A DNA stretch of 24,000 nt from Candidatus Woesearchaeota archaeon (GTDB lineage Archaea; Nanobdellota; Nanobdellia; Woesearchaeales; SKIA01): the NCBI GenBank assembly GCA_007116645.1, contig SKIA01000001.1, forward strand, positions 9,896-33,895. The letters run 5' to 3'. The notes below the pieces were generated by a model. The model saw only the letters and a program-made list of their open reading frames with translations, was not told where the DNA came from and ran no database searches. Position numbers and translations under genes: made by a program. This document shows positions 3,549 through 12,870 of the stretch, piece by piece (position 1 is the stretch's first letter; the number at the start of each line of letters is the position of its first letter).

Positions 3549-5288
3549 ATGACGCGAATTGCAGTAGTAGAAGCAGACAAGTGCGACCAATCAAAATGTG
3601 GCGGCCTGTACTGCGCAAAGGTTTGTCCTATCAATAGAGCAGGAGACGAATGCGTCTATGAAGGAGAAGACCGAAAAGCAAAAATCATCGAGTCAATGTG
3701 TGTTGGCTGCGGAATTTGCCCAAAAAAATGTCCCACAAACGCAATCACTATCGTTAACCTCCCAGACGAGTTTAACGAGCAACCCATCCACAAATACGGA
3801 GAGTCAGGATTTCAACTCTACAACCTACCCATCCCAGTCTTTGGAAAAGTCGTAGGACTATTAGGACGAAACGGTATTGGAAAGAGTACTGCAGTAAAGA
3901 TCTTGGCAGGAATGCTTAAACCAAACCTGAAAACAGACCGAGAAGTTGAACTTGACGAGCTCATCCATTATTTCAAAGGAACAGAAGCACAAAGTTATTT
4001 TGAGCGCTTAAAAGAAGGAAAAATTAAGGTTGCCTACAAACCGCAACAAGTAGAAGCAATTCCAAAAACATTCAAAGGAACAGTAAAAGAGCTCTTAACA
4101 AAAGTTGATGAGAAACAACAACTCGAAGAGATCGCAAACACCTTAGAGCTCGAACACATCCTTGACAGAAGTATAGACCACATCAGTGGTGGAGAGCTGC
4201 AACGAGTAGCGATTGCAGCAACAGTTCTTAGAAAAGCAAACGTGTACTTTTTTGACGAACCAACAAGCTATCTTGACATTAAGCAAAGAATCAAAATTAG
4301 CCGATTCATCAAAAACCTAGCAGACGAACACACAGCAGTAGTCGTTATTGAACACGACCTCATCATTCTTGATTACCTCACAGATCTTGTGCACTTAATG
4401 TACGGAAAAGAGAACGCGTACGGAATCGTCTCGCAACCAAAGAGCACAAGAAACGGAATTAACATTTACCTTTCAGGATACCTTCCCGAAGAAAACATGC
4501 GCTTTCGCTCAAACCACATCACGTTTGACATCCGCGGAGTACGAGAAATTGAACGAGACTCATTTCTTGCTGACTGGGAAGAGTTTAGCGTAAAGAAAGG
4601 AGAGTTCTCGCTGAAAGCAGATAAAGGAACCATTCATACTCACGACATCATAGGAATCCTTGGAGAGAACGGAATAGGAAAAACCACGTTTGTAAAACGC
4701 CTAGCAGAAATTGAAGGAGAAACAAAACACGGAGCACTACGCGTCGCGTTCAAACCACAATATCCTCCTGCAGATGATACGCTTGTCATGACGCACCTTA
4801 TGCAAGCAATGAAGTATGATGTGCAACTCATCAAGCCACTTGAACTAGAAGAGCTGTACGAAAGGCAATTAAACCAATTATCAGGAGGACAACTCCAACG
4901 AGTTATTATCGCAAAAACACTTGCAGAAGAAGCCGACTTGTACTTGCTTGACGAACCATCAGCATACCTTGACGTTGAACAACGACTTCGCATGTCAAAA
5001 ATTATTCGCGACATGATGGAGCTTAAAGGAAAAGCATGCCTTGTTGTCGACCACGACTTATTGTTCATAGATTATCTCTCAGAAAAACTGATAGTGTTTG
5101 ACGGAACGCCAGCAGTATCAGGACACGCAAAGGGACCCTACACCATGGAAGGCGGAATGAACCAATTCTTATCAGATCTTGGAATAACATTCAGACGAGA
5201 TGAAGACTCGGGAAGACCAAGAGTCAATAAAATCAATTCTGTAAAAGATAAAGAACAACGAGCAAGCGGAAACTTGTACTACTCGTAA
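3549..5288 (+). CDS. abce1: ABCE1 / RNase L inhibitor-type ribosome recycling ATPase
   Basis: The N-terminus has two 4Fe-4S ferredoxin cysteine clusters (CDQSKCGGLYCAKVCP, CVGCGICPKKCP). Two ABC domains follow, with Walker A (GRNGIGKST, GENGIGKTT), the signature (SGGELQR, SGGQLQR) and Walker B (FFDEP, LLDEP). Confidence 0.95.
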   Translation: MTRIAVVEADKCDQSKCGGLYCAKVCPINRAGDECVYEGEDRKAKIIESMCVGCGICPKKCPTNAITIVNLPDEFNEQPIHKYGESGFQLYNLPIPVFGKVVGLLGRNGIGKSTAVKILAGMLKPNLKTDREVELDELIHYFKGTEAQSYFERLKEGKIKVAYKPQQVEAIPKTFKGTVKELLTKVDEKQQLEEIANTLELEHILDRSIDHISGGELQRVAIAATVLRKANVYFFDEPTSYLDIKQRIKISRFIKNLADEHTAVVVIEHDLIILDYLTDLVHLMYGKENAYGIVSQPKSTRNGINIYLSGYLPEENMRFRSNHITFDIRGVREIERDSFLADWEEFSVKKGEFSLKADKGTIHTHDIIGILGENGIGKTTFVKRLAEIEGETKHGALRVAFKPQYPPADDTLVMTHLMQAMKYDVQLIKPLELEELYERQLNQLSGGQLQRVIIAKTLAEEADLYLLDEPSAYLDVEQRLRMSKIIRDMMELKGKACLVVDHDLLFIDYLSEKLIVFDGTPAVSGHAKGPYTMEGGMNQFLSDLGITFRRDEDSGRPRVNKINSVKDKEQRASGNLYYS

Positions 5289-6424: not shown

Positions 6425-6970
6425 GTGTATGGATACATGACCGTGCGATATGAAGTAGGTAAAGGAATTGTTATTGCTTGTGCAGTAGTGTGCCTCTCGT
6501 TTTTTTTATTATTCACATTTCACGCGACAACGCCTCAACAAGCACAAGCAAAACAGTATTTGGACGGAATAAGCGAGCAAGCACCATTTTTTGGTGATGA
6601 ACAAGAACACATGGTTGATGTGAAAAATGTTCTTGACGGAGCACGAATTTTTTCAGCAATCATAATAGTGCTAGGACTTGTCGCGTTTGAGCGCAGAACG
6701 CGCTTTTCTTCAGTGTTTGCGGGTACTGTGCTTATCGGACTCCCACTGATCTTAGTTATGCTTCCTTGGGACGTGTTGTTTACACAGTTTCACCACATCT
6801 TTTTCCCACAGGGAAACTGGATATTTGCATACAACTCAGAAATCATTCAGACATACCCACAATCATTGTTCATGTGGTTTGCAGGAATTTGGGCAGGCAT
6901 ATGTTTATTAACAGGGGCTGCGCTCATGAAACTCTGGGGCAATGGTAACAAGAAACAAATTCACAATTGA
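6425..6970 (+). CDS. Integral membrane protein, possibly TIGR01906/DUF1461-like
   Basis: It has four hydrophobic segments. The C-terminal FHHIFFPQGNWIFAYNSEIIQTYPQSLF resembles the DUF1461 signature as I recall it, so the family call is tentative. The start may instead be ATG 6437. Confidence 0.6.
   Translation: MYGYMTVRYEVGKGIVIACAVVCLSFFLLFTFHATTPQQAQAKQYLDGISEQAPFFGDEQEHMVDVKNVLDGARIFSAIIIVLGLVAFERRTRFSSVFAGTVLIGLPLILVMLPWDVLFTQFHHIFFPQGNWIFAYNSEIIQTYPQSLFMWFAGIWAGICLLTGAALMKLWGNGNKKQIHN
6893..6911 (+). promoter_or_regulatory. Copy 1 of the 19-nt element gcaggcatatgtttattaa, ending 30 nt before ATG 6942
   Basis: It is a perfect repeat of 7497..7515. It contains CATATG plus the TATA-like tttattaa, and it lies inside the coding sequence of the 6425..6970 gene. 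Confidence 0.6.
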
Positions 6971-7469
6971 TAAACTGTTCTTGTACACCCCACTGGATAT
7001 TGATAAGGCAACATCATTTTTGAGCCATGTACGATCCCCCTTAGAAATTGACGAGCTTTCTTTGTATGGGGCCACTCAAGTAAATTTACGGTTTAAAACC
7101 ACAGGAAAGATCGCAGAGTTAAAAGTTGCGCGCAACATTGAACCTGCACTATTACATGAAAAAATCAGTGCGCAACTAGGAGGCATTATGCCACAGTCAA
7201 GCATCCGCACTAGTACTCGCGATGCAGCAGCAGTACGAAATATGCGCTCTCTAATCGCATTTTTTTCTGATTACCAACAACCACTGTATATCACAGCACA
7301 AGTTCATAATCGGACGTACGGATTTATTGAGGATGTTTTTGTGCTTGGCACAAACCCTTCTGCAAGTAGCTCACCACAACATACGTTCGACTGTGCAAAT
7401 ATCTGGCGCACAGAACTACCAGAACTCTTTCGATCACAATACGAAACCAAAATCCCTATACGACGCTAA
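6942..7469 (+). CDS. Orphan protein, paralogue 1 (175 aa)
   Basis: The ORF is intact and overlaps the upstream gene by 29 nt. It is weakly collinear with the products of 7546..7896 plus 7893..8039. No known domain. Confidence 0.6.
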   Translation: MVTRNKFTIDKLFLYTPLDIDKATSFLSHVRSPLEIDELSLYGATQVNLRFKTTGKIAELKVARNIEPALLHEKISAQLGGIMPQSSIRTSTRDAAAVRNMRSLIAFFSDYQQPLYITAQVHNRTYGFIEDVFVLGTNPSASSSPQHTFDCANIWRTELPELFRSQYETKIPIRR

Positions 7470-7496
7470 TTAAACATTAAATATATGAGAGTATAT

Positions 7497-7515
7497 GCAG
7501 GCATATGTTTATTAA
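7497..7515 (+). promoter_or_regulatory. Copy 2 of the 19-nt element gcaggcatatgtttattaa, ending 30 nt before ATG 7546
   Basis: It is a perfect repeat of 6893..6911 with identical spacing to the next start codon. Confidence 0.6.
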
Positions 7516-7545
7516 TGTGAATGGCTGTTAAGACAAGAATCAACA

Positions 7546-7896
7546 ATGATAACAAACAGTAACTTCCCTAAGCGACTAGAAATACGCACGACAGCAGATA
7601 TGGACCGCATGAAGCGAGTGATGGAAGCAAGCGACTCTCCATTCATACTTGCAGGCATGAACTTAGGCAATACTGCTCCACGGATTAGTTACGGAATCAC
7701 CAATAGCACAGGACTGTTCACACTGACCGCACCATCATTTGATATTCCAAGACGAGAACCATACCTTAATGCACGCAGTAAAATGGGATTTGGACCTGCA
7801 AGAAGTGTTGTTGAAGGAGTGCTTGCTTCAGCAGTGCACGCACCAGATTTGGGAAGAGCACTTAGCATGTTTAACACCAAATTGGATGGTATATGA
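7546..7896 (+). CDS. Orphan protein, paralogue 2 N-terminal piece (116 aa)
   Basis: It starts MITNSNF, against MVTRNKF in paralogue 1. It has DMDR-x8-DSPFIL where paralogue 1 has DIDK-x8-RSPLEI. Confidence 0.55.
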   Translation: MITNSNFPKRLEIRTTADMDRMKRVMEASDSPFILAGMNLGNTAPRISYGITNSTGLFTLTAPSFDIPRREPYLNARSKMGFGPARSVVEGVLASAVHAPDLGRALSMFNTKLDGI

Positions 7897-8039
7897 TGGC
7901 ACGCGCTGATCATAGAGCAGCTCCTGAATTCATCCTTGGCGAGTCATCACCAGGAAGATTCGTGTACGGAAACCTTGGTACAAGAGTTTTTGAACAGCTT
8001 GGAATTAACCCAGACAACCCGCTCAGAAGAGCGAGCTAA
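7893..8039 (+). CDS. Small ORF (48 aa) overlapping the previous stop as ATGA; it corresponds to the C-terminal piece of paralogue 2
   Basis: This ORF is not in the ORF track. It encodes MMARADHRAAPEFILGESSPGRFVYGNLGTRVFEQLGINPDNPLRRAS. FILG..SSP..PLRR mirrors FVLG..SSP..PIRR at the C-terminus of paralogue 1. Confidence 0.4.
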   Translation: MMARADHRAAPEFILGESSPGRFVYGNLGTRVFEQLGINPDNPLRRAS

Positions 8040-8863
8040 TCAAACGCTTTTTGCATTGCTTCTTCATCCGGTAGCGTCCAAGCAGGTGCAGTTTTCTTCT
8101 CTTGTGGTCGAAGGTCCGCCCAGTTTGGTCCGAGGTAGCGAAAAAAAGACAGAAACGCGGTGAAGGCAACGTTTTTTGACGTGGGCCGCACGGCTTGTTC
8201 TTTGACCATCCAGTGACGCTCAGAAACTTCTACTGTACGCAGATGATACAATCCTTGCTTTACTGCATGATGATGAATGTGCTGTAGTTGAGATGTTGAC
8301 GGAACGTATGTCACGATGTACCCTCCTACTTTGAGGGCTTTTGAGATGTGCGGAAAAACAGTCCATGGTTCTGGCATGTCAAGGATGACTGCGTCAAGGT
8401 CTGTTTCGTGGATTCCTTGAGAGACATCATGAAGATGGAATGTTACGTTATCAAGGTCAAAACTTTCAACGTTTTCTTTAGCAACCGAAAGGTGTTCGTT
8501 GTTGATGTCGTAACTAAAGACTTCTTTGCAGTGTTGTCCGAGCAAGATAGTGAGTGCTCCTGAGCCACTTCCTGCTTCAAGAACGCGGCTTTGCGGCGTA
8601 AGACCCGCAGTGGTCATGATCACGCCAGCGTCTTTGAATGTTATAATTTGTGCTTCTCGACGAATGCGCTTGTAACGGTCAATGAAGTGAGGTGTGAACA
8701 CAACAAGTGTTTCTCCTGCATCTGTCGCAACGATATCTCCGTCTTGTGCTTTTTCAAGCGTTTGGGCAGTGATTCGTCCGTACTGAGTGTGTACGTCAGC
8801 ACTGGAAGACTCTTGAATAAAGGTTCTTCCTGTTCCTGAAATAAGCATTCTGTGAACTCGCAT
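8036..8863 (-). CDS. trmI: tRNA (adenine-N1)-methyltransferase TrmI (Gcd14 family)
   Basis: SAM motif I is VLEAGSGSGALTILLG, followed by DAVILDMPEPW and VGGYIVTYVPSTSQ. The N-terminal beta domain is typical of TrmI. A TATA-like ttttttatt lies about 25 nt upstream of ATG 8863. Confidence 0.88.
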   Translation of the reverse strand: MRVHRMLISGTGRTFIQESSSADVHTQYGRITAQTLEKAQDGDIVATDAGETLVVFTPHFIDRYKRIRREAQIITFKDAGVIMTTAGLTPQSRVLEAGSGSGALTILLGQHCKEVFSYDINNEHLSVAKENVESFDLDNVTFHLHDVSQGIHETDLDAVILDMPEPWTVFPHISKALKVGGYIVTYVPSTSQLQHIHHHAVKQGLYHLRTVEVSERHWMVKEQAVRPTSKNVAFTAFLSFFRYLGPNWADLRPQEKKTAPAWTLPDEEAMQKAFD

Positions 8864-11352: not shown

Positions 11353-11379
11353 CGAAGTTGCTTTTTTTCAGTCACTATG

Positions 11380-11392
11380 TCTGAAAATCAGA
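11380..11392. promoter_or_regulatory. Inverted-repeat motif TCTGA-AAA-TCAGA, copy 2 (candidate operator)
   Basis: It is an identical 13-mer exactly 40 bp from copy 1. An A/T run (11362..11372) lies between the two copies. Confidence 0.45.
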
Positions 11393-11436
11393 ATAGAAGT
11401 TTATCAATACGTATGGAAAATAATTCTGTTGCTGAC

Positions 11437-11952
11437 TTACGCTGCTTGCAAAGAACGACTTGGACGATACGATACCCGAGTCGAGCGAGTTTCATAGTCA
11501 GGAATGAGAACACCCACACTACACGTACCCGTACGCACAAAACGCACTCCAGGAACGCCTCTTGCACCCGCAAGCGCACGAGAGATCGATTCATCAGCAC
11601 GAGTAGGGGAGCGAAAATCATACTCTACCAAGCTCGCAAAGGGAATGCGCAGGCAATCAGAAGACAGCCAAGGGTGATCAGGCTCAGAGTCAGCATACAT
11701 CGACAAATCATCCATTACAGAGTGCCAATTAGGCATGGCCTGAGATGTGCGCAGCGAATCACGAGCGTATGGAAAAAACACTTCTGCAATGCGTGCAGGG
11801 TCCTGATACGTCGTCTTTGTTTTTTGCGTGCCATCCGGCAACACACCATCTGGAACGACTACTTTAAGCTGTTCTTCAAGCGTAAAACCTGTAGGATGAA
11901 AGGTGATGATGCGCCGCGATCTGCGCACATCAAGAATTGCTTCCACTCCCAT
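11437..11952 (-). CDS. Hypothetical protein (171 aa)
   Basis: Its composition is protein-like, unlike the Arg/Thr/His-rich overlapping + frame. A TATA-like cttaaata (revcomp of 11974..11981) lies 26 nt upstream of ATG 11952. I recognise no domain. Confidence 0.55.
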   Translation of the reverse strand: MGVEAILDVRRSRRIITFHPTGFTLEEQLKVVVPDGVLPDGTQKTKTTYQDPARIAEVFFPYARDSLRTSQAMPNWHSVMDDLSMYADSEPDHPWLSSDCLRIPFASLVEYDFRSPTRADESISRALAGARGVPGVRFVRTGTCSVGVLIPDYETRSTRVSYRPSRSLQAA

Positions 11953-12010
11953 ACAGTGATTGCGAAAGAGCAGTATTTAAGCATTATTAGTGTGGGGAAC
12001 ACACACTATG

Positions 12011-12018
12011 TTTTTATA
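12011..12018 (+). promoter_or_regulatory. TATA-like box for tRNA-Arg
   Basis: tttttata is centred 29 nt upstream of tRNA position 1 (12044). Confidence 0.5.
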
Positions 12019-12043
12019 GCAAAGAACATCCCAAAAGTACATC

Positions 12044-12118
12044 GGTCCCGTAGCTCAGCCTGGATAGAGCGCTGGCCTTCTAAGCCAGATGCCGAGGGTT
12101 CAAATCCCTCCGGGATCA
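12044..12118 (+). tRNA. tRNA-Arg (anticodon TCT)
   Basis: I folded the cloverleaf by hand. Acceptor GGTCCCG/CGGGATC; D arm GCTC..GAGC; anticodon stem CTGGC/GCCAG with loop CTTCTAA; T arm GAGGG-TTCAAAT-CCCTC; discriminator A. No intron and no encoded CCA. Confidence 0.9.
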
Positions 12119-12120
12119 CT

Positions 12121-12519
12121 ATGACCCCTGATCGCGTCGGAGCAGTAATCATCCAAGAAGGAAAAGTACTGCTTGTCACAGGATACGACATGGACTTATA
12201 CTGGACCCCGGGAGGACGTATTGAAGAAGGAGAAGACCACGAAACAACACTTCGTCGAGAACTCCAAGAAGAGCTCGGACTAGAGCTTGAGCGTATGACG
12301 CCCTTTGTCACATACAAAGCCGCTCGAACGACAACAGGAGAGATGCGCACTGTATACATCTATTTTGCAGACGTTACAGGTGAGCCCGTGCCCGCAGAAG
12401 AGATCAAAGCATTTGTATGGTATGGACAAGCAGAGTATGAACAAAAAAATCCTCCTGTAAAAGAACATACGTACAAACGAGTTATCAGACATCTTGCAGA
12501 ACACGGTTTTTTGCACTAG
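12121..12519 (+). CDS. Nudix hydrolase (MutT-like, 132 aa)
   Basis: The Nudix box is GGRIEEGEDHETTLRRELQEELGL. The ATG lies 2 nt after the tRNA-Arg discriminator base. The upstream part of the 380-aa track ORF is non-coding or tRNA. Confidence 0.85.
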   Translation: MTPDRVGAVIIQEGKVLLVTGYDMDLYWTPGGRIEEGEDHETTLRRELQEELGLELERMTPFVTYKAARTTTGEMRTVYIYFADVTGEPVPAEEIKAFVWYGQAEYEQKNPPVKEHTYKRVIRHLAEHGFLH

Positions 12520-12698: not shown

Positions 12699-12723
12699 CG
12701 CAGGGCCTGTCCTTTGACTACAA

Positions 12724-12795
12724 GCGTCCGTAGCCAAGCGGTAAGGCAACCGCCTGCAGAGCGGTCATTCCCCGGTTCGAATCCGGGCGGGCGCT
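12724..12795 (+). tRNA. tRNA-Cys (anticodon GCA)
   Basis: Acceptor GCGTCCG/CGGGCGC; anticodon stem ACCGC/GCGGT with loop CTGCAGA; T arm CCCGG-TTCGAAT-CCGGG; discriminator T, the U73 expected for Cys. It is followed by T6. Confidence 0.9.
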
Positions 12796-12799
12796 TTTT
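12783..12799 (+). repeat. Direct repeat copy 1: the last 13 nt of tRNA-Cys plus the oligo-T tract (ccgggcgggcgcttttt)
   Basis: It is a perfect 17-mer also found at 12854..12870. Confidence 0.8.
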
Positions 12800-12853: not shown

Positions 12854-12870
12854 CCGGGCGGGCGCTTTTT
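12854..12870 (+). repeat. Direct repeat copy 2: an orphan copy of the tRNA-Cys 3' end plus oligo-T
   Basis: It is a perfect 17-mer located 71 nt downstream of copy 1. The 54-nt spacer carries two hairpins (cgctttttt/aaaaaagcg and caaagaac/gttctttg). Confidence 0.8.

What the first reader, a model, noticed from the sequence alone, without database searches (positions are those of the whole stretch)
6893..8039. Identical 19-nt element exactly 30 nt upstream of two diverged tandem orphan paralogues
The 19-mer gcaggcatatgtttattaa occurs at 6893..6911 and 7497..7515. A repeated 19-mer in 24 kb is expected by chance at roughly 1e-3 under uniform composition. Each copy ends exactly 30 nt before an ATG (6942 and 7546). 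The two 30-nt spacers are unrelated, yet the ORFs begin alike: MVTRNKF versus MITNSNF, with 15 of 21 nt identical. They stay weakly collinear further in: DIDK-x8-RSPLEI versus DMDR-x8-DSPFIL, RSLIAFF versus RALSMFN, and FVLG..SSP..PIRR-end versus FILG..SSP..PLRR near the end. This looks like an old tandem duplication with a 604-nt period in which everything drifted except the 19-mer. That argues the 19-mer is a selected cis element; it contains CATATG plus a TATA-like tttattaa. Copy 1 is embedded in the coding sequence of the upstream membrane protein (codons AGICLL). After copy 2 the same frame reads AGICLLM-stop, as if the unit had been duplicated or inserted into an ancestral gene end. None of the encoded proteins has a domain I recognise.
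Basis: partly seen in the sequence, partly recalled or inferred. Interest (0 to 1): 0.7.

Follow-up and report, generated by a model that had tools for sequence, protein, structure and literature searches.

The report
Shared promoter-like 19-mer before two duplicated orphan genes
Two neighbouring genes of unknown function, found only in one lineage of tiny Woesearchaeota-like archaea, came from an old tandem duplication, and the one stretch still identical is a 19-base element that looks like an archaeal core promoter; this is a tidy but fairly ordinary case of a promoter duplicated with its gene.

Summary
The 19-mer GCAGGCATATGTTTATTAA occurs exactly twice (6893-6911, 7497-7515). It is the longest exact repeat in the window, and each copy ends 30 nt before an ATG.

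The genome is Woesearchaeota-like. The upstream gene is a Lit/DUF1461 membrane protein.

In seven related genomes Lit lies convergent to the tRNA methyltransferase TrmI. In the three closest the two genes abut. None has the orphan genes, so about 1.1 kb (~6935-8035) is lineage-specific.

The sequence after copy 1 (TGAALMKL) is the native Lit helix end. Copy 2 is therefore a relic of a co-duplicated Lit 3' end, not an ancestral gene end.

Paralogy holds for the 5' part only:
- equal 30-nt spacers;
- 17/23 nt identical around the ATG;
- first 40-60 residues at z = 4-5.

The rest of the proteins cannot be told from chance.

The best reading is a TATA box plus TFB-contact region (17 of the 19 nt), kept by selection in both copies. 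Copy 1 is overprinted on rare Lit codons. The predicted transcription starts lie about 5-9 nt upstream of each ATG.

No transcript data exist. The BRE part is atypical, and gene conversion or a recombination site is not excluded.

Interest is modest.

The parts
6437..6970 (+). Lit/DUF1461-family membrane protein gene (177 aa from ATG 6437; the longest ORF starts at GTG 6425). Its last transmembrane helix carries 19-mer copy 1, and its last 29 nt overlap gene A.
   Evidence: PF07314 E = 3e-15 and NCBIfam Lit/TIGR01906 hits. Orthologues lie in seven related loci. C-terminal alignment.
6893..6911 (+). 19-mer copy 1, GCAGGCATATGTTTATTAA. It sits inside Lit codons A-G-I-C-L-L-(T). TATA-like TTTATTAA lies at 6904-6911, preceded by 11 nt that cover the 9-nt BRE position.
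   Evidence: The TATA-like score is in the top 0.08% of octamers. The codons used are minor ones: GGC 0.20, ATA 0.20, TTA 0.12 twice. Only 11/19 nt match at the orthologous place in L013, and no TATA-like octamer is there in four relatives.
6912..6941 (+). Spacer 1 (30 nt). It is native Lit coding sequence (TGAALMKLWG). The predicted transcription start is about 6933-6937.
   Evidence: Orthologous to L013 VGAALIRY. The start is inferred from the 23 +/- 2 nt rule for TATA 3' edge to TSS (PMC2699501).
6942..7469 (+). Gene A, a 175-aa ORFan.
   Evidence: Only a self hit among 5.8e9 proteins. No Pfam, NCBIfam, PHROG or PADLOC hit. Host-like codon usage in frame only. AlphaFold pLDDT 53, with no significant fold match.
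7470..7496 (+). AT-rich 27-nt stretch between the stop of A and 19-mer copy 2. The duplication junction lies somewhere here.
   Evidence: There is no significant similarity to the Lit sequence upstream of copy 1 (13/30 in register; tblastx E = 0.01 driven by the 19-mer itself).
7497..7515 (+). 19-mer copy 2. It is intergenic and non-coding, a relic of the co-duplicated Lit 3' end.
   Evidence: No ORF needs it.
7516..7545 (+). Spacer 2 (30 nt). It is unrelated in sequence to spacer 1 (10/30). The predicted transcription start is about 7537-7541.
7546..7896 (+). Gene B1, a 116-aa ORFan. Its N-terminal ~60 residues are homologous to those of A.
   Evidence: Full HMMER scan of 1.84e9 representatives gave only self plus two repeat-protein artefacts. 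Anchored N-terminal test z = 4-4.9. Codon usage.
7893..8039 (+). Gene B2, 48 aa (47 aa if it starts at 7896). It overlaps B1 by ATGA in the -1 frame. It probably corresponds to the C-terminal part of A after a net 34-nt loss. Its stop overlaps the stop of TrmI.
   Evidence: The split is present in independent assemblies. Similarity to the C-terminus of A is not significant (z about 1.2). Coding-like codon usage.
6935..8035 (+). Lineage-specific DNA of about 1.1 kb between the native Lit end and the TrmI stop. It is absent from all related genomes examined.
   Evidence: In L010, L013 and L014, Lit and TrmI abut or overlap. L015 to L019 carry other, unrelated minus-strand genes in this slot. Junction alignments.
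8036..8863 (-). tRNA m1A methyltransferase (TrmI/GCD14 family). It is convergent and marks the right boundary of the novel DNA.
   Evidence: PF08704 E = 5e-21. Its 3' end aligns with L013 directly after the Lit stop there.

Best explanation
The 19-mer is most likely the core promoter of each of two tandem paralogous orphan genes. TBP would bind the TATA box TTTATTAA. TFB, and possibly a specific regulator, would contact the 9-11 nt just upstream.

Proposed history:
1. A proto-gene was gained in the variable slot between the convergent Lit and TrmI genes of a Woesearchaeota-like archaeon. No intergenic DNA lay upstream of it, so its promoter sat inside the last transmembrane-helix codons of Lit.
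2. A unit of about 604 nt was duplicated in tandem. It comprised 49 nt of the Lit 3' end, the gene and a short tail.
3. Spacers, synonymous sites and most of the protein then drifted to saturation. The second copy split into 116-aa and 48-aa ORFs.
4. The 19 nt stayed identical because each copy is needed to start transcription about 23 nt downstream of the TATA box, giving a leader of about 5-9 nt before each ATG.

Shown here: the repeat, the register, the N-terminal paralogy, the lineage-specific gain, that copy 1 is native Lit sequence, and the TATA-like quality.

Inferred: binding of TBP/TFB, the transcription start sites, and selection as the cause of the identity.
For: - Exact repeat well beyond chance.
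- Three further in-register signals of common descent: spacers of exactly 30 nt; 17/23 nt at the ATG (P about 7e-4); first 40-60 residues at z = 4.0-4.9, with strict global z about 3.5.
- Copy 2 is non-coding yet intact next to a spacer at random identity (10/30). Neutral survival is therefore implausible.
- Copy 1 uses minor codons.
- Lit in the relatives lacks the TATA-like octamer at that place. The closest relatives have no gene at all between Lit and TrmI.
- TTTATTAA scores in the top 0.08% of octamers. Such octamers are concentrated in the 9% of the window that is intergenic. They end 19-25 nt before ATGs or tRNA 5' ends.
- In M. jannaschii the BRE is the 9 nt upstream of an 8-nt TATA box, 17 nt in all, and the TSS lies 23 +/- 2 nt from the TATA 3' edge (PMC2699501). 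The 19-mer is this footprint plus 2 nt.
- Promoters inside archaeal coding sequences are documented (PMC2710873).
Against: - There are no transcript data.
- The TATA 3' edge lies 30 nt from the ATG, whereas most genes here have 19-23 nt and look leaderless. Two others have 31 and 34 nt.
- The 11 nt upstream (GCAGGCATATG) match the local A-rich BRE pattern at only about 2-3 of the 5 A-dominated positions.
- Promoters are degenerate, so 19/19 identity is more than a basal promoter normally requires.
- No divergent genome carrying these genes exists in the databases searched, so conservation cannot be tested phylogenetically.
Confidence: 0.5

Rival explanations
1. Recent short-patch gene conversion, or another repair event, copied 19 nt from the Lit copy onto the already diverged upstream region of B. 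On this view the identity is a historical accident without function.
For: The edges of identity are sharp and the flanks are at random identity. Identity of 19/19 exceeds what degenerate promoters usually need. The BRE part is atypical. Background knowledge, not tested here: archaeal recombination can use very short homologies.
Against: Conversion needs flanking similarity, and none is detectable. It would be a coincidence that the converted patch is exactly the TATA-like plus BRE-position segment at promoter distance from both ATGs. It also does not explain the minor codons in copy 1 or the lineage-specific appearance of the TATA-like octamer in Lit.
Confidence: 0.15
2. The 19-mer is the core of a site-specific recombination site, or a target-site duplication. 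The 604-nt unit, or each gene, is then a cassette inserted at the Lit 3' end.
For: Perfect direct repeats bracket a single-gene unit. The Lit/TrmI junction is a variable slot with different contents in different relatives. A similar 17-nt duplication of a tRNA-Cys 3' end lies elsewhere in the window.
Against: Native Lit sequence resumes after copy 1, not after copy 2. That contradicts a simple insertion or target-site duplication. The unit has no terminal inverted repeats and no recombinase. The A and B 5' regions are homologous in register, as expected for duplication rather than capture of unrelated cassettes. The only other occurrences of the 19-mer in GTDB genomes and JGI metagenomes are six single chance hits in unrelated DNA, and IMG/VR has none.
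Confidence: 0.08
3. Lit, A and B are transcribed as one mRNA. The 19-mer then acts at the RNA level, for example as a binding site for a protein or small RNA that enables internal translation initiation 30 nt downstream, or as a processing site.
For: A overlaps Lit by 29 nt, and neither ATG has a Shine-Dalgarno motif. The fixed 30-nt distance to the ATG would suit a translation-linked element.
Against: The two copies share no RNA structure: copy 2 folds no better than shuffles (z = +0.87) and the stable fold of copy 1 uses Lit-specific flanks. There is no Rfam match. The element contains a strong TATA-like octamer of the kind otherwise confined to promoters here.
Confidence: 0.1
4. Chance repeat plus chance resemblance of two unrelated ORFs.
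For: Standard pairwise protein statistics are null.
Against: None of 200 simulations reaches a 19-nt repeat. The in-register signals are independent of it: P about 7e-4 for the ATG block and at most 4e-4 for the N-termini.
Confidence: 0.01

Closest known systems
Archaeal BRE/TATA core promoter located inside the coding sequence of the upstream gene (internal promoters; Koide et al. 2009, PMC2710873; promoter geometry from Zhang et al. 2009, PMC2699501)
   Same: An 8-nt TATA-like box lies directly preceded by the 9-nt BRE position. The distance to the gene start is compatible with a TSS 23 +/- 2 nt from the TATA edge. Copy 1 is embedded in the 3' end of a gene that leaves no intergenic space.
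   Different: The BRE part is not A-rich like the other promoters in this window. The predicted leader is about 5-9 nt where most local genes look leaderless. Activity is untested.
Tandem gene duplication that carries the promoter along (paralogues sharing a duplicated 5' regulatory region)
   Same: Two adjacent co-oriented genes have homologous 5' ends and identical geometry between promoter and ATG.
   Different: The divergence is extreme: the proteins are about 24% identical and only the N-terminal third is detectably related. Yet 19 nt are perfectly preserved. The duplicated promoter is a fragment of another gene's coding sequence.
Attachment-site or target-site direct repeats of integrated elements (for example tRNA 3'-end att cores)
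   Same: A perfect short direct repeat brackets a gene-sized segment. One copy lies in the 3' end of a host gene.
   Different: The native gene continues after the first copy, not the second. There is no recombinase and there are no terminal inverted repeats. The bracketed gene is a paralogue of the gene that follows the second copy.
Integron gene cassettes (attC-bounded, promoterless ORFs)
   Same: Small single-ORF units of unknown function are stacked head to tail at one locus.
   Different: No attC-like imperfect palindrome and no integrase were seen. The repeat here is a promoter-like sequence upstream of each ORF, not a recombination hairpin downstream of it.

Membership tests
Archaeal BRE/TATA core promoter | AT-rich 8-nt TATA box of the type used by other genes of the same genome | tested here: met
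   TTTATTAA scores 13.5 on a simple TTTAWATA-type scoring, in the top 0.08% of octamers in the window. Comparable octamers precede about 15 genes and tRNAs.
Archaeal BRE/TATA core promoter | BRE (TFB recognition element) directly upstream of the TATA box, matching the local consensus | tested here: inconclusive
   Local promoters are A-rich at -8, -6, -5, -4 and -3 relative to the TATA box. GCAGGCATATG has A only at -5 and -3, and T at -4. The sample is small, 16 promoters.
Archaeal BRE/TATA core promoter | Transcription start 23 +/- 2 nt downstream of the TATA 3' edge | not testable with these tools
   No transcript data are available. The geometry predicts TSS at about 6933-6937 and 7537-7541, giving 5-9-nt leaders. 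Most local genes have the ATG 19-23 nt from the TATA edge; two have 31 and 34 nt.
Archaeal BRE/TATA core promoter | TBP/TFB binding and promoter activity | not testable with these tools
   This needs EMSA, in vitro transcription or a reporter assay.
Tandem paralogues (one duplicated unit) | Units alignable in one register at the DNA level | tested here: met
   In register are 19/19 nt, equal 30-nt spacers and 17/23 nt at the ATG (in-register P about 7e-4). The rest of the unit is at background: 28% identity against 25 +/- 2% at other offsets.
Tandem paralogues (one duplicated unit) | Significant protein similarity | tested here: inconclusive
   The N-terminal 40-60 residues give z = 4.0-4.9, and the strict global alignment gives z = 3.0-3.5 against 1.4-2.0 for a reversed control. 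Local or BLASTP statistics are not significant (E = 0.15). Residues 60-112 and the C-terminus versus B2 are at chance.
Tandem paralogues (one duplicated unit) | Same fold | tested here: inconclusive
   Single-sequence AlphaFold gave pLDDT 53 (A) and 39 (B1). Both models share the order helix, three strands, two helices; the model of A has an extra N-terminal strand. Neither model is reliable.
Integrated element with att core or target-site duplication | Host sequence interrupted at the first repeat resumes after the second repeat | tested here: not met
   The Lit C-terminus conserved in orthologues (xGAAL/GLxL plus a basic tail) follows copy 1. After copy 2 the frame reads M-stop.
Integrated element with att core or target-site duplication | Recombinase or transposase, or terminal inverted repeats, in the bracketed unit | tested here: not met
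   The unit encodes only the 175-aa ORFan, which has no Pfam, NCBIfam, PHROG or PADLOC hit. There are no inverted repeats at its ends.
Integrated element with att core or target-site duplication | The same core is found in other genomes or mobile elements | tested here: not met
   Exact-match scans of GTDB genomes, JGI metagenomes and IMG/VR gave three, three and zero single hits. The hits that could be compared share no other similarity with the window.
Lit / DUF1461 (upstream gene only) | Match to PF07314 above the gathering threshold | tested here: met
   57.2 bits against a cut-off of 24, E = 3e-15. Syntenic orthologues lie in seven relatives.

The most novel reading that the evidence does not exclude
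The 19-mer is the crossover core of a small, so far undescribed cassette-stacking system in DPANN archaea. Units of '19-mer + 30 nt + ORFan' would be added or removed at the 3' end of Lit by a recombinase encoded elsewhere, making the Lit/TrmI slot an integron-like array of fast-evolving genes.
Probability: 0.06. Interest if true: 0.7.

Novelty: new member of a known kind. Interest (0 to 1): 0.3.

Why it matters
If the promoter reading holds, this is a clean natural example of three steps. A newly gained gene in a very compact archaeal genome obtains a promoter by overprinting it on the last codons of the upstream gene. That promoter is then carried along as a gene fragment in a tandem duplication. 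Finally, it outlasts all other sequence similarity.

It would also give a defined 19-bp candidate promoter or operator for Woesearchaeota, a group with no genetic system and almost no mapped promoters.

It does not reveal a new type of element, and the function of the two orphan proteins stays unknown.

Tried and rejected
- Homologues of the orphan proteins. A against 5.8e9 proteins gave only itself. B1 against 1.84e9 representatives by full HMMER gave itself plus two giant repeat proteins. Those two scores come from summing weak repeated matches, and the same proteins 'hit' many unrelated Pfam families with zero passing stretches. Pfam, NCBIfam, PHROGs and PADLOC gave nothing. Phage records and IMG/VR gave nothing.
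- The 19-mer elsewhere. It gave only single chance hits in unrelated DNA.
- An unsupervised motif finder on upstream regions converged on a non-TATA motif and was dropped. A simple consensus scoring replaced it.
- Origin of the 1.1-kb insert. It shows no similarity to the rest of the window, to the relatives' loci, or to the genes that fill the same slot in more distant relatives: His_Phos_1, a 239-aa ORF and a 96-aa ORF.
- Shared RNA structure or a known RNA family: none. Both spacers contain GGCTG, which could pair with the GCAG of the 19-mer, but the position is shifted by 3 nt and the stem has only 4-5 bp. This was judged not significant.
- Programmed frameshift between B1 and B2. There is no slippery heptamer, and the ATGA overlap is the ordinary coupled stop/start arrangement.
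- A possible relic of the TrmI 3' end after the stop of A (TAATTAAAC versus TAATCAAAC after B2). It is only about 5/6 to 6/12 matches when anchored at the stops, which is too weak to use.
Full report
**1. Observation**

The 19-mer GCAGGCATATGTTTATTAA occurs at 6893-6911 and 7497-7515 on the + strand. There is no further match in the window even with three mismatches. It is the longest exact direct repeat in the 24 kb. In 200 first-order Markov simulations the longest repeat was 13-18 nt.

Each copy ends exactly 30 nt before an ATG that opens an ORF. These are 6942-7469 (175 aa, 'A') and 7546-7896 (116 aa, 'B1'). B1 is followed by 7893-8039 (48 aa, 'B2'), which overlaps it by ATGA.

The same sequence, split included, is found in three other assemblies from three samples: L005 at 99.98% over 15 kb, and L004 and L006 at 100%. 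It is therefore not an assembly or sequencing artefact.

**2. Host and neighbours**

The window encodes an archaeal ABCE1/RLI (3549-5288) and a TrmI/GCD14 tRNA methyltransferase (8036-8863, minus strand). G+C is 44.7%. ABCE1 homologues at 60-77% identity are labelled Candidatus Woesearchaeota by NCBI.

The 'membrane protein' upstream of A is a Lit/DUF1461 family protein (PF07314, E = 3e-15).

A, B1 and B2 have host-like codon usage in their own frames only, so they look like real genes. They have no detectable relatives:
- A finds only itself among 5.8e9 proteins.
- B1 finds only itself among 1.84e9 representatives by full HMMER, apart from two repeat-protein artefacts.
- Pfam, NCBIfam, PHROGs, PADLOC, phage records and IMG/VR give nothing.

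**3. Are A and B paralogues?**

Ordinary statistics say no. BLASTP gives E = 0.15 over 41 residues, and local alignment z is about 1. The 19-mer, however, defines a register, and tests anchored in that register are positive:
- The spacers are both 30 nt, although only 10/30 nt are identical.
- The 23 nt around the ATGs share 17 positions. The per-window probability is 1.3e-6, so about 7e-4 for any in-register window. Among 190 pairs of unrelated start contexts, none reached 17.
- The first 40-60 residues score z = 4.0-4.9 against shuffles (0-2 of 5000). They are the best of 1932 segment pairs between the two proteins.
- A strict end-to-end alignment of A with B1+B2 gives z = 3.0-3.5, against 1.4-2.0 for a reversed control.

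Beyond residue ~60 nothing is distinguishable from chance.

Single-sequence AlphaFold models are poor (pLDDT 53 and 39). Both share the order helix, three strands, two helices, and the model of A has an additional N-terminal strand. Foldseek finds nothing.

I conclude that a tandem duplication is well supported for the 5' part of the unit. It is plausible, but unproven, for the whole.

**4. Comparative context, the decisive new evidence**

ABCE1 gave a graded series of relatives. Their loci show the following:

| Locus | ABCE1 identity | Between Lit and TrmI |
|---|---|---|
| L010 | 91% | nothing; the genes abut or overlap |
| L013 | 83% | nothing |
| L014 | 79% | nothing |
| L015 | 78% | a 96-aa ORF on the minus strand |
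| L016, L017, L019 | 76-77% | a His_Phos_1 gene on the minus strand |
| L018 | 76% | a 239-aa ORF on the minus strand |

L010 and L013 show the gene order ABCE1, membrane protein(-), Lit(+), TrmI(-), large surface protein(-), MazE-like(-). The L014 contig ends within TrmI.

None of the slot contents in the more distant relatives is related to A or B. The Lit/TrmI junction is thus a variable slot. About 1.1 kb of the window (~6935-8035, exactly A, the inter-unit region, B1 and B2) is specific to this lineage.

The junction alignments fix the boundaries. On the right, TAATCAAACGC... follows B2 in the window and follows the Lit stop directly in L013. On the left, the Lit orthologues end as follows:
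- window: ...WAGICLLTGAALMKLWGNGNKKQIHN*
- L013: ...WGGICILVGAALIRYNS*
- L010: ...WGALCITSGLVLVLRKK...

The sequence after copy 1 is therefore the native end of the last Lit transmembrane helix. Copy 2 is instead the remnant of a Lit 3' fragment that was duplicated together with the gene.

**5. What keeps 19 nt identical?**

The 30 nt next to copy 2 were once Lit sequence too and are now at random identity. Neutral survival of 19 adjacent non-coding bases is therefore not credible.

Copy 1 is coding, but the amino acids vary among orthologues (GGICIL, GALCIT, GALCFV). It also uses minor codons: GGC 0.20, ATA 0.20 and TTA 0.12 twice. At the orthologous place L013 shares only 11/19 nt. None of four relatives has a TATA-like octamer there, and they have no co-oriented gene downstream.

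TTTATTAA is a strong TATA-like octamer, in the top 0.08% of the window. Such octamers are concentrated in the 9% of the window that is intergenic. They end 19-25 nt before the ATGs of about a dozen genes and the 5' ends of all three tRNAs.

In M. jannaschii the BRE is the nine positions upstream of an 8-nt TATA box, and the TSS lies 23 +/- 2 nt from the TATA 3' edge (PMC2699501). The 19-mer thus equals the 17-nt TFB/TBP recognition segment plus two bases. It predicts starts at about 6933-6937 and 7537-7541, that is, 5-9-nt leaders. Promoters inside archaeal coding sequences are documented where genes leave no intergenic gap (PMC2710873).

**6. Weak points of the promoter reading**

- No transcript data are available.
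- The distance from TATA to ATG is 30 nt, whereas most genes here have 19-23 nt and look leaderless. Two others have 31 and 34 nt.
- GCAGGCATATG fits the local A-rich BRE pattern poorly. The upstream 11 nt may therefore be a specific regulator site rather than a canonical BRE, or the identity may have another cause.
- Perfect identity exceeds what degenerate promoters need.

**7. Rivals**

- Short-patch gene conversion without function (0.15).
- An RNA-level element on a polycistronic Lit-A-B transcript (0.10). There is no shared structure and no Rfam hit.
- A recombination core or cassette system (0.08). The topology argument in section 4 speaks against it, as do the absence of a recombinase or terminal repeats and the absence of the 19-mer elsewhere.
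- Chance (about 0.01).

**8. Verdict**

It is right about the old tandem duplication and probably right about a selected cis element. It is wrong about insertion into an ancestral gene end, and it overstates the full-length collinearity.

The thing is best filed as an archaeal core promoter, possibly with an operator, overprinted on the 3' end of Lit and co-duplicated with a lineage-specific orphan gene. That makes it a new member of known kinds, of modest interest, with a clear experimental test.

Noticed in passing
window 12783-12799 and 12854-12870: This is the second-longest exact direct repeat in the window, 17 nt: CCGGGCGGGCGCTTTTT. The first copy is the 3' end of tRNA-Cys (12723-12796) plus a T-run. 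The second lies 71 nt downstream. It looks like a duplicated tRNA 3' end (integration scar or att remnant) or a duplicated terminator.
   Followed up: partly
Lit/TrmI junction: window 6970-8036; L010 6181-6245; L013 11107-11110; L015 17745-18035; L016 10234-10764; L018 10864-11583; L019 10258-10794: The junction between convergent Lit and TrmI is a variable slot among Woesearchaeota relatives. It is empty, with overlapping stops, in three. It holds a 96-aa ORF in one, a His_Phos_1 phosphatase gene in three and a 239-aa unknown gene in one. All of these are on the minus strand and unrelated to A or B.
   Followed up: yes
window 11377-12519: The 380-aa ORF listed on the + strand runs across tRNA-Arg (12044-12119), so it cannot be one gene. 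In the near-identical assembly L005, gene calling gives a NUDIX protein (12121-12519) and a 171-aa minus-strand ORF (11437-11952) instead.
   Followed up: partly
window 172, 15003, 16439, 19885(-), 23818(-), 6425: For several longest-ORF starts the best TATA-like octamer ends only 3-7 nt upstream. The true starts are therefore probably about 15-20 nt further downstream. For Lit, for example, ATG 6437 is used rather than GTG 6425. Most genes in this genome appear leaderless, with the TATA edge 19-23 nt before the ATG.
   Followed up: partly
window 4112, 4139, 4143 (inside ABCE1): The only three differences between the window and the independent assembly L005 over 15.2 kb are clustered within 32 nt of the ABCE1 gene. 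A second, related Woesearchaeota population (ABCE1 91% identical; L011, L012) co-occurs in the same ENA samples. The cluster could be a small recombination patch between the two populations.
   Followed up: no
L013 2685-6293 and 17607-18173; L018 17050-17743: A relative's family-B DNA polymerase carries an intein with a LAGLIDADG domain. Free-standing LAGLIDADG ORFs lie nearby in two relatives. They are absent from the corresponding part of the window.
   Followed up: no
window 6914-6921 and 7523-7528: Both otherwise unrelated 30-nt spacers contain GGCTG, which is complementary to the GCAG(G)C at the start of the 19-mer. This gives a 4-5-bp inverted repeat bracketing the TATA-like box. The position is shifted by 3 nt between the copies, and the repeat is not statistically convincing.
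   Followed up: partly
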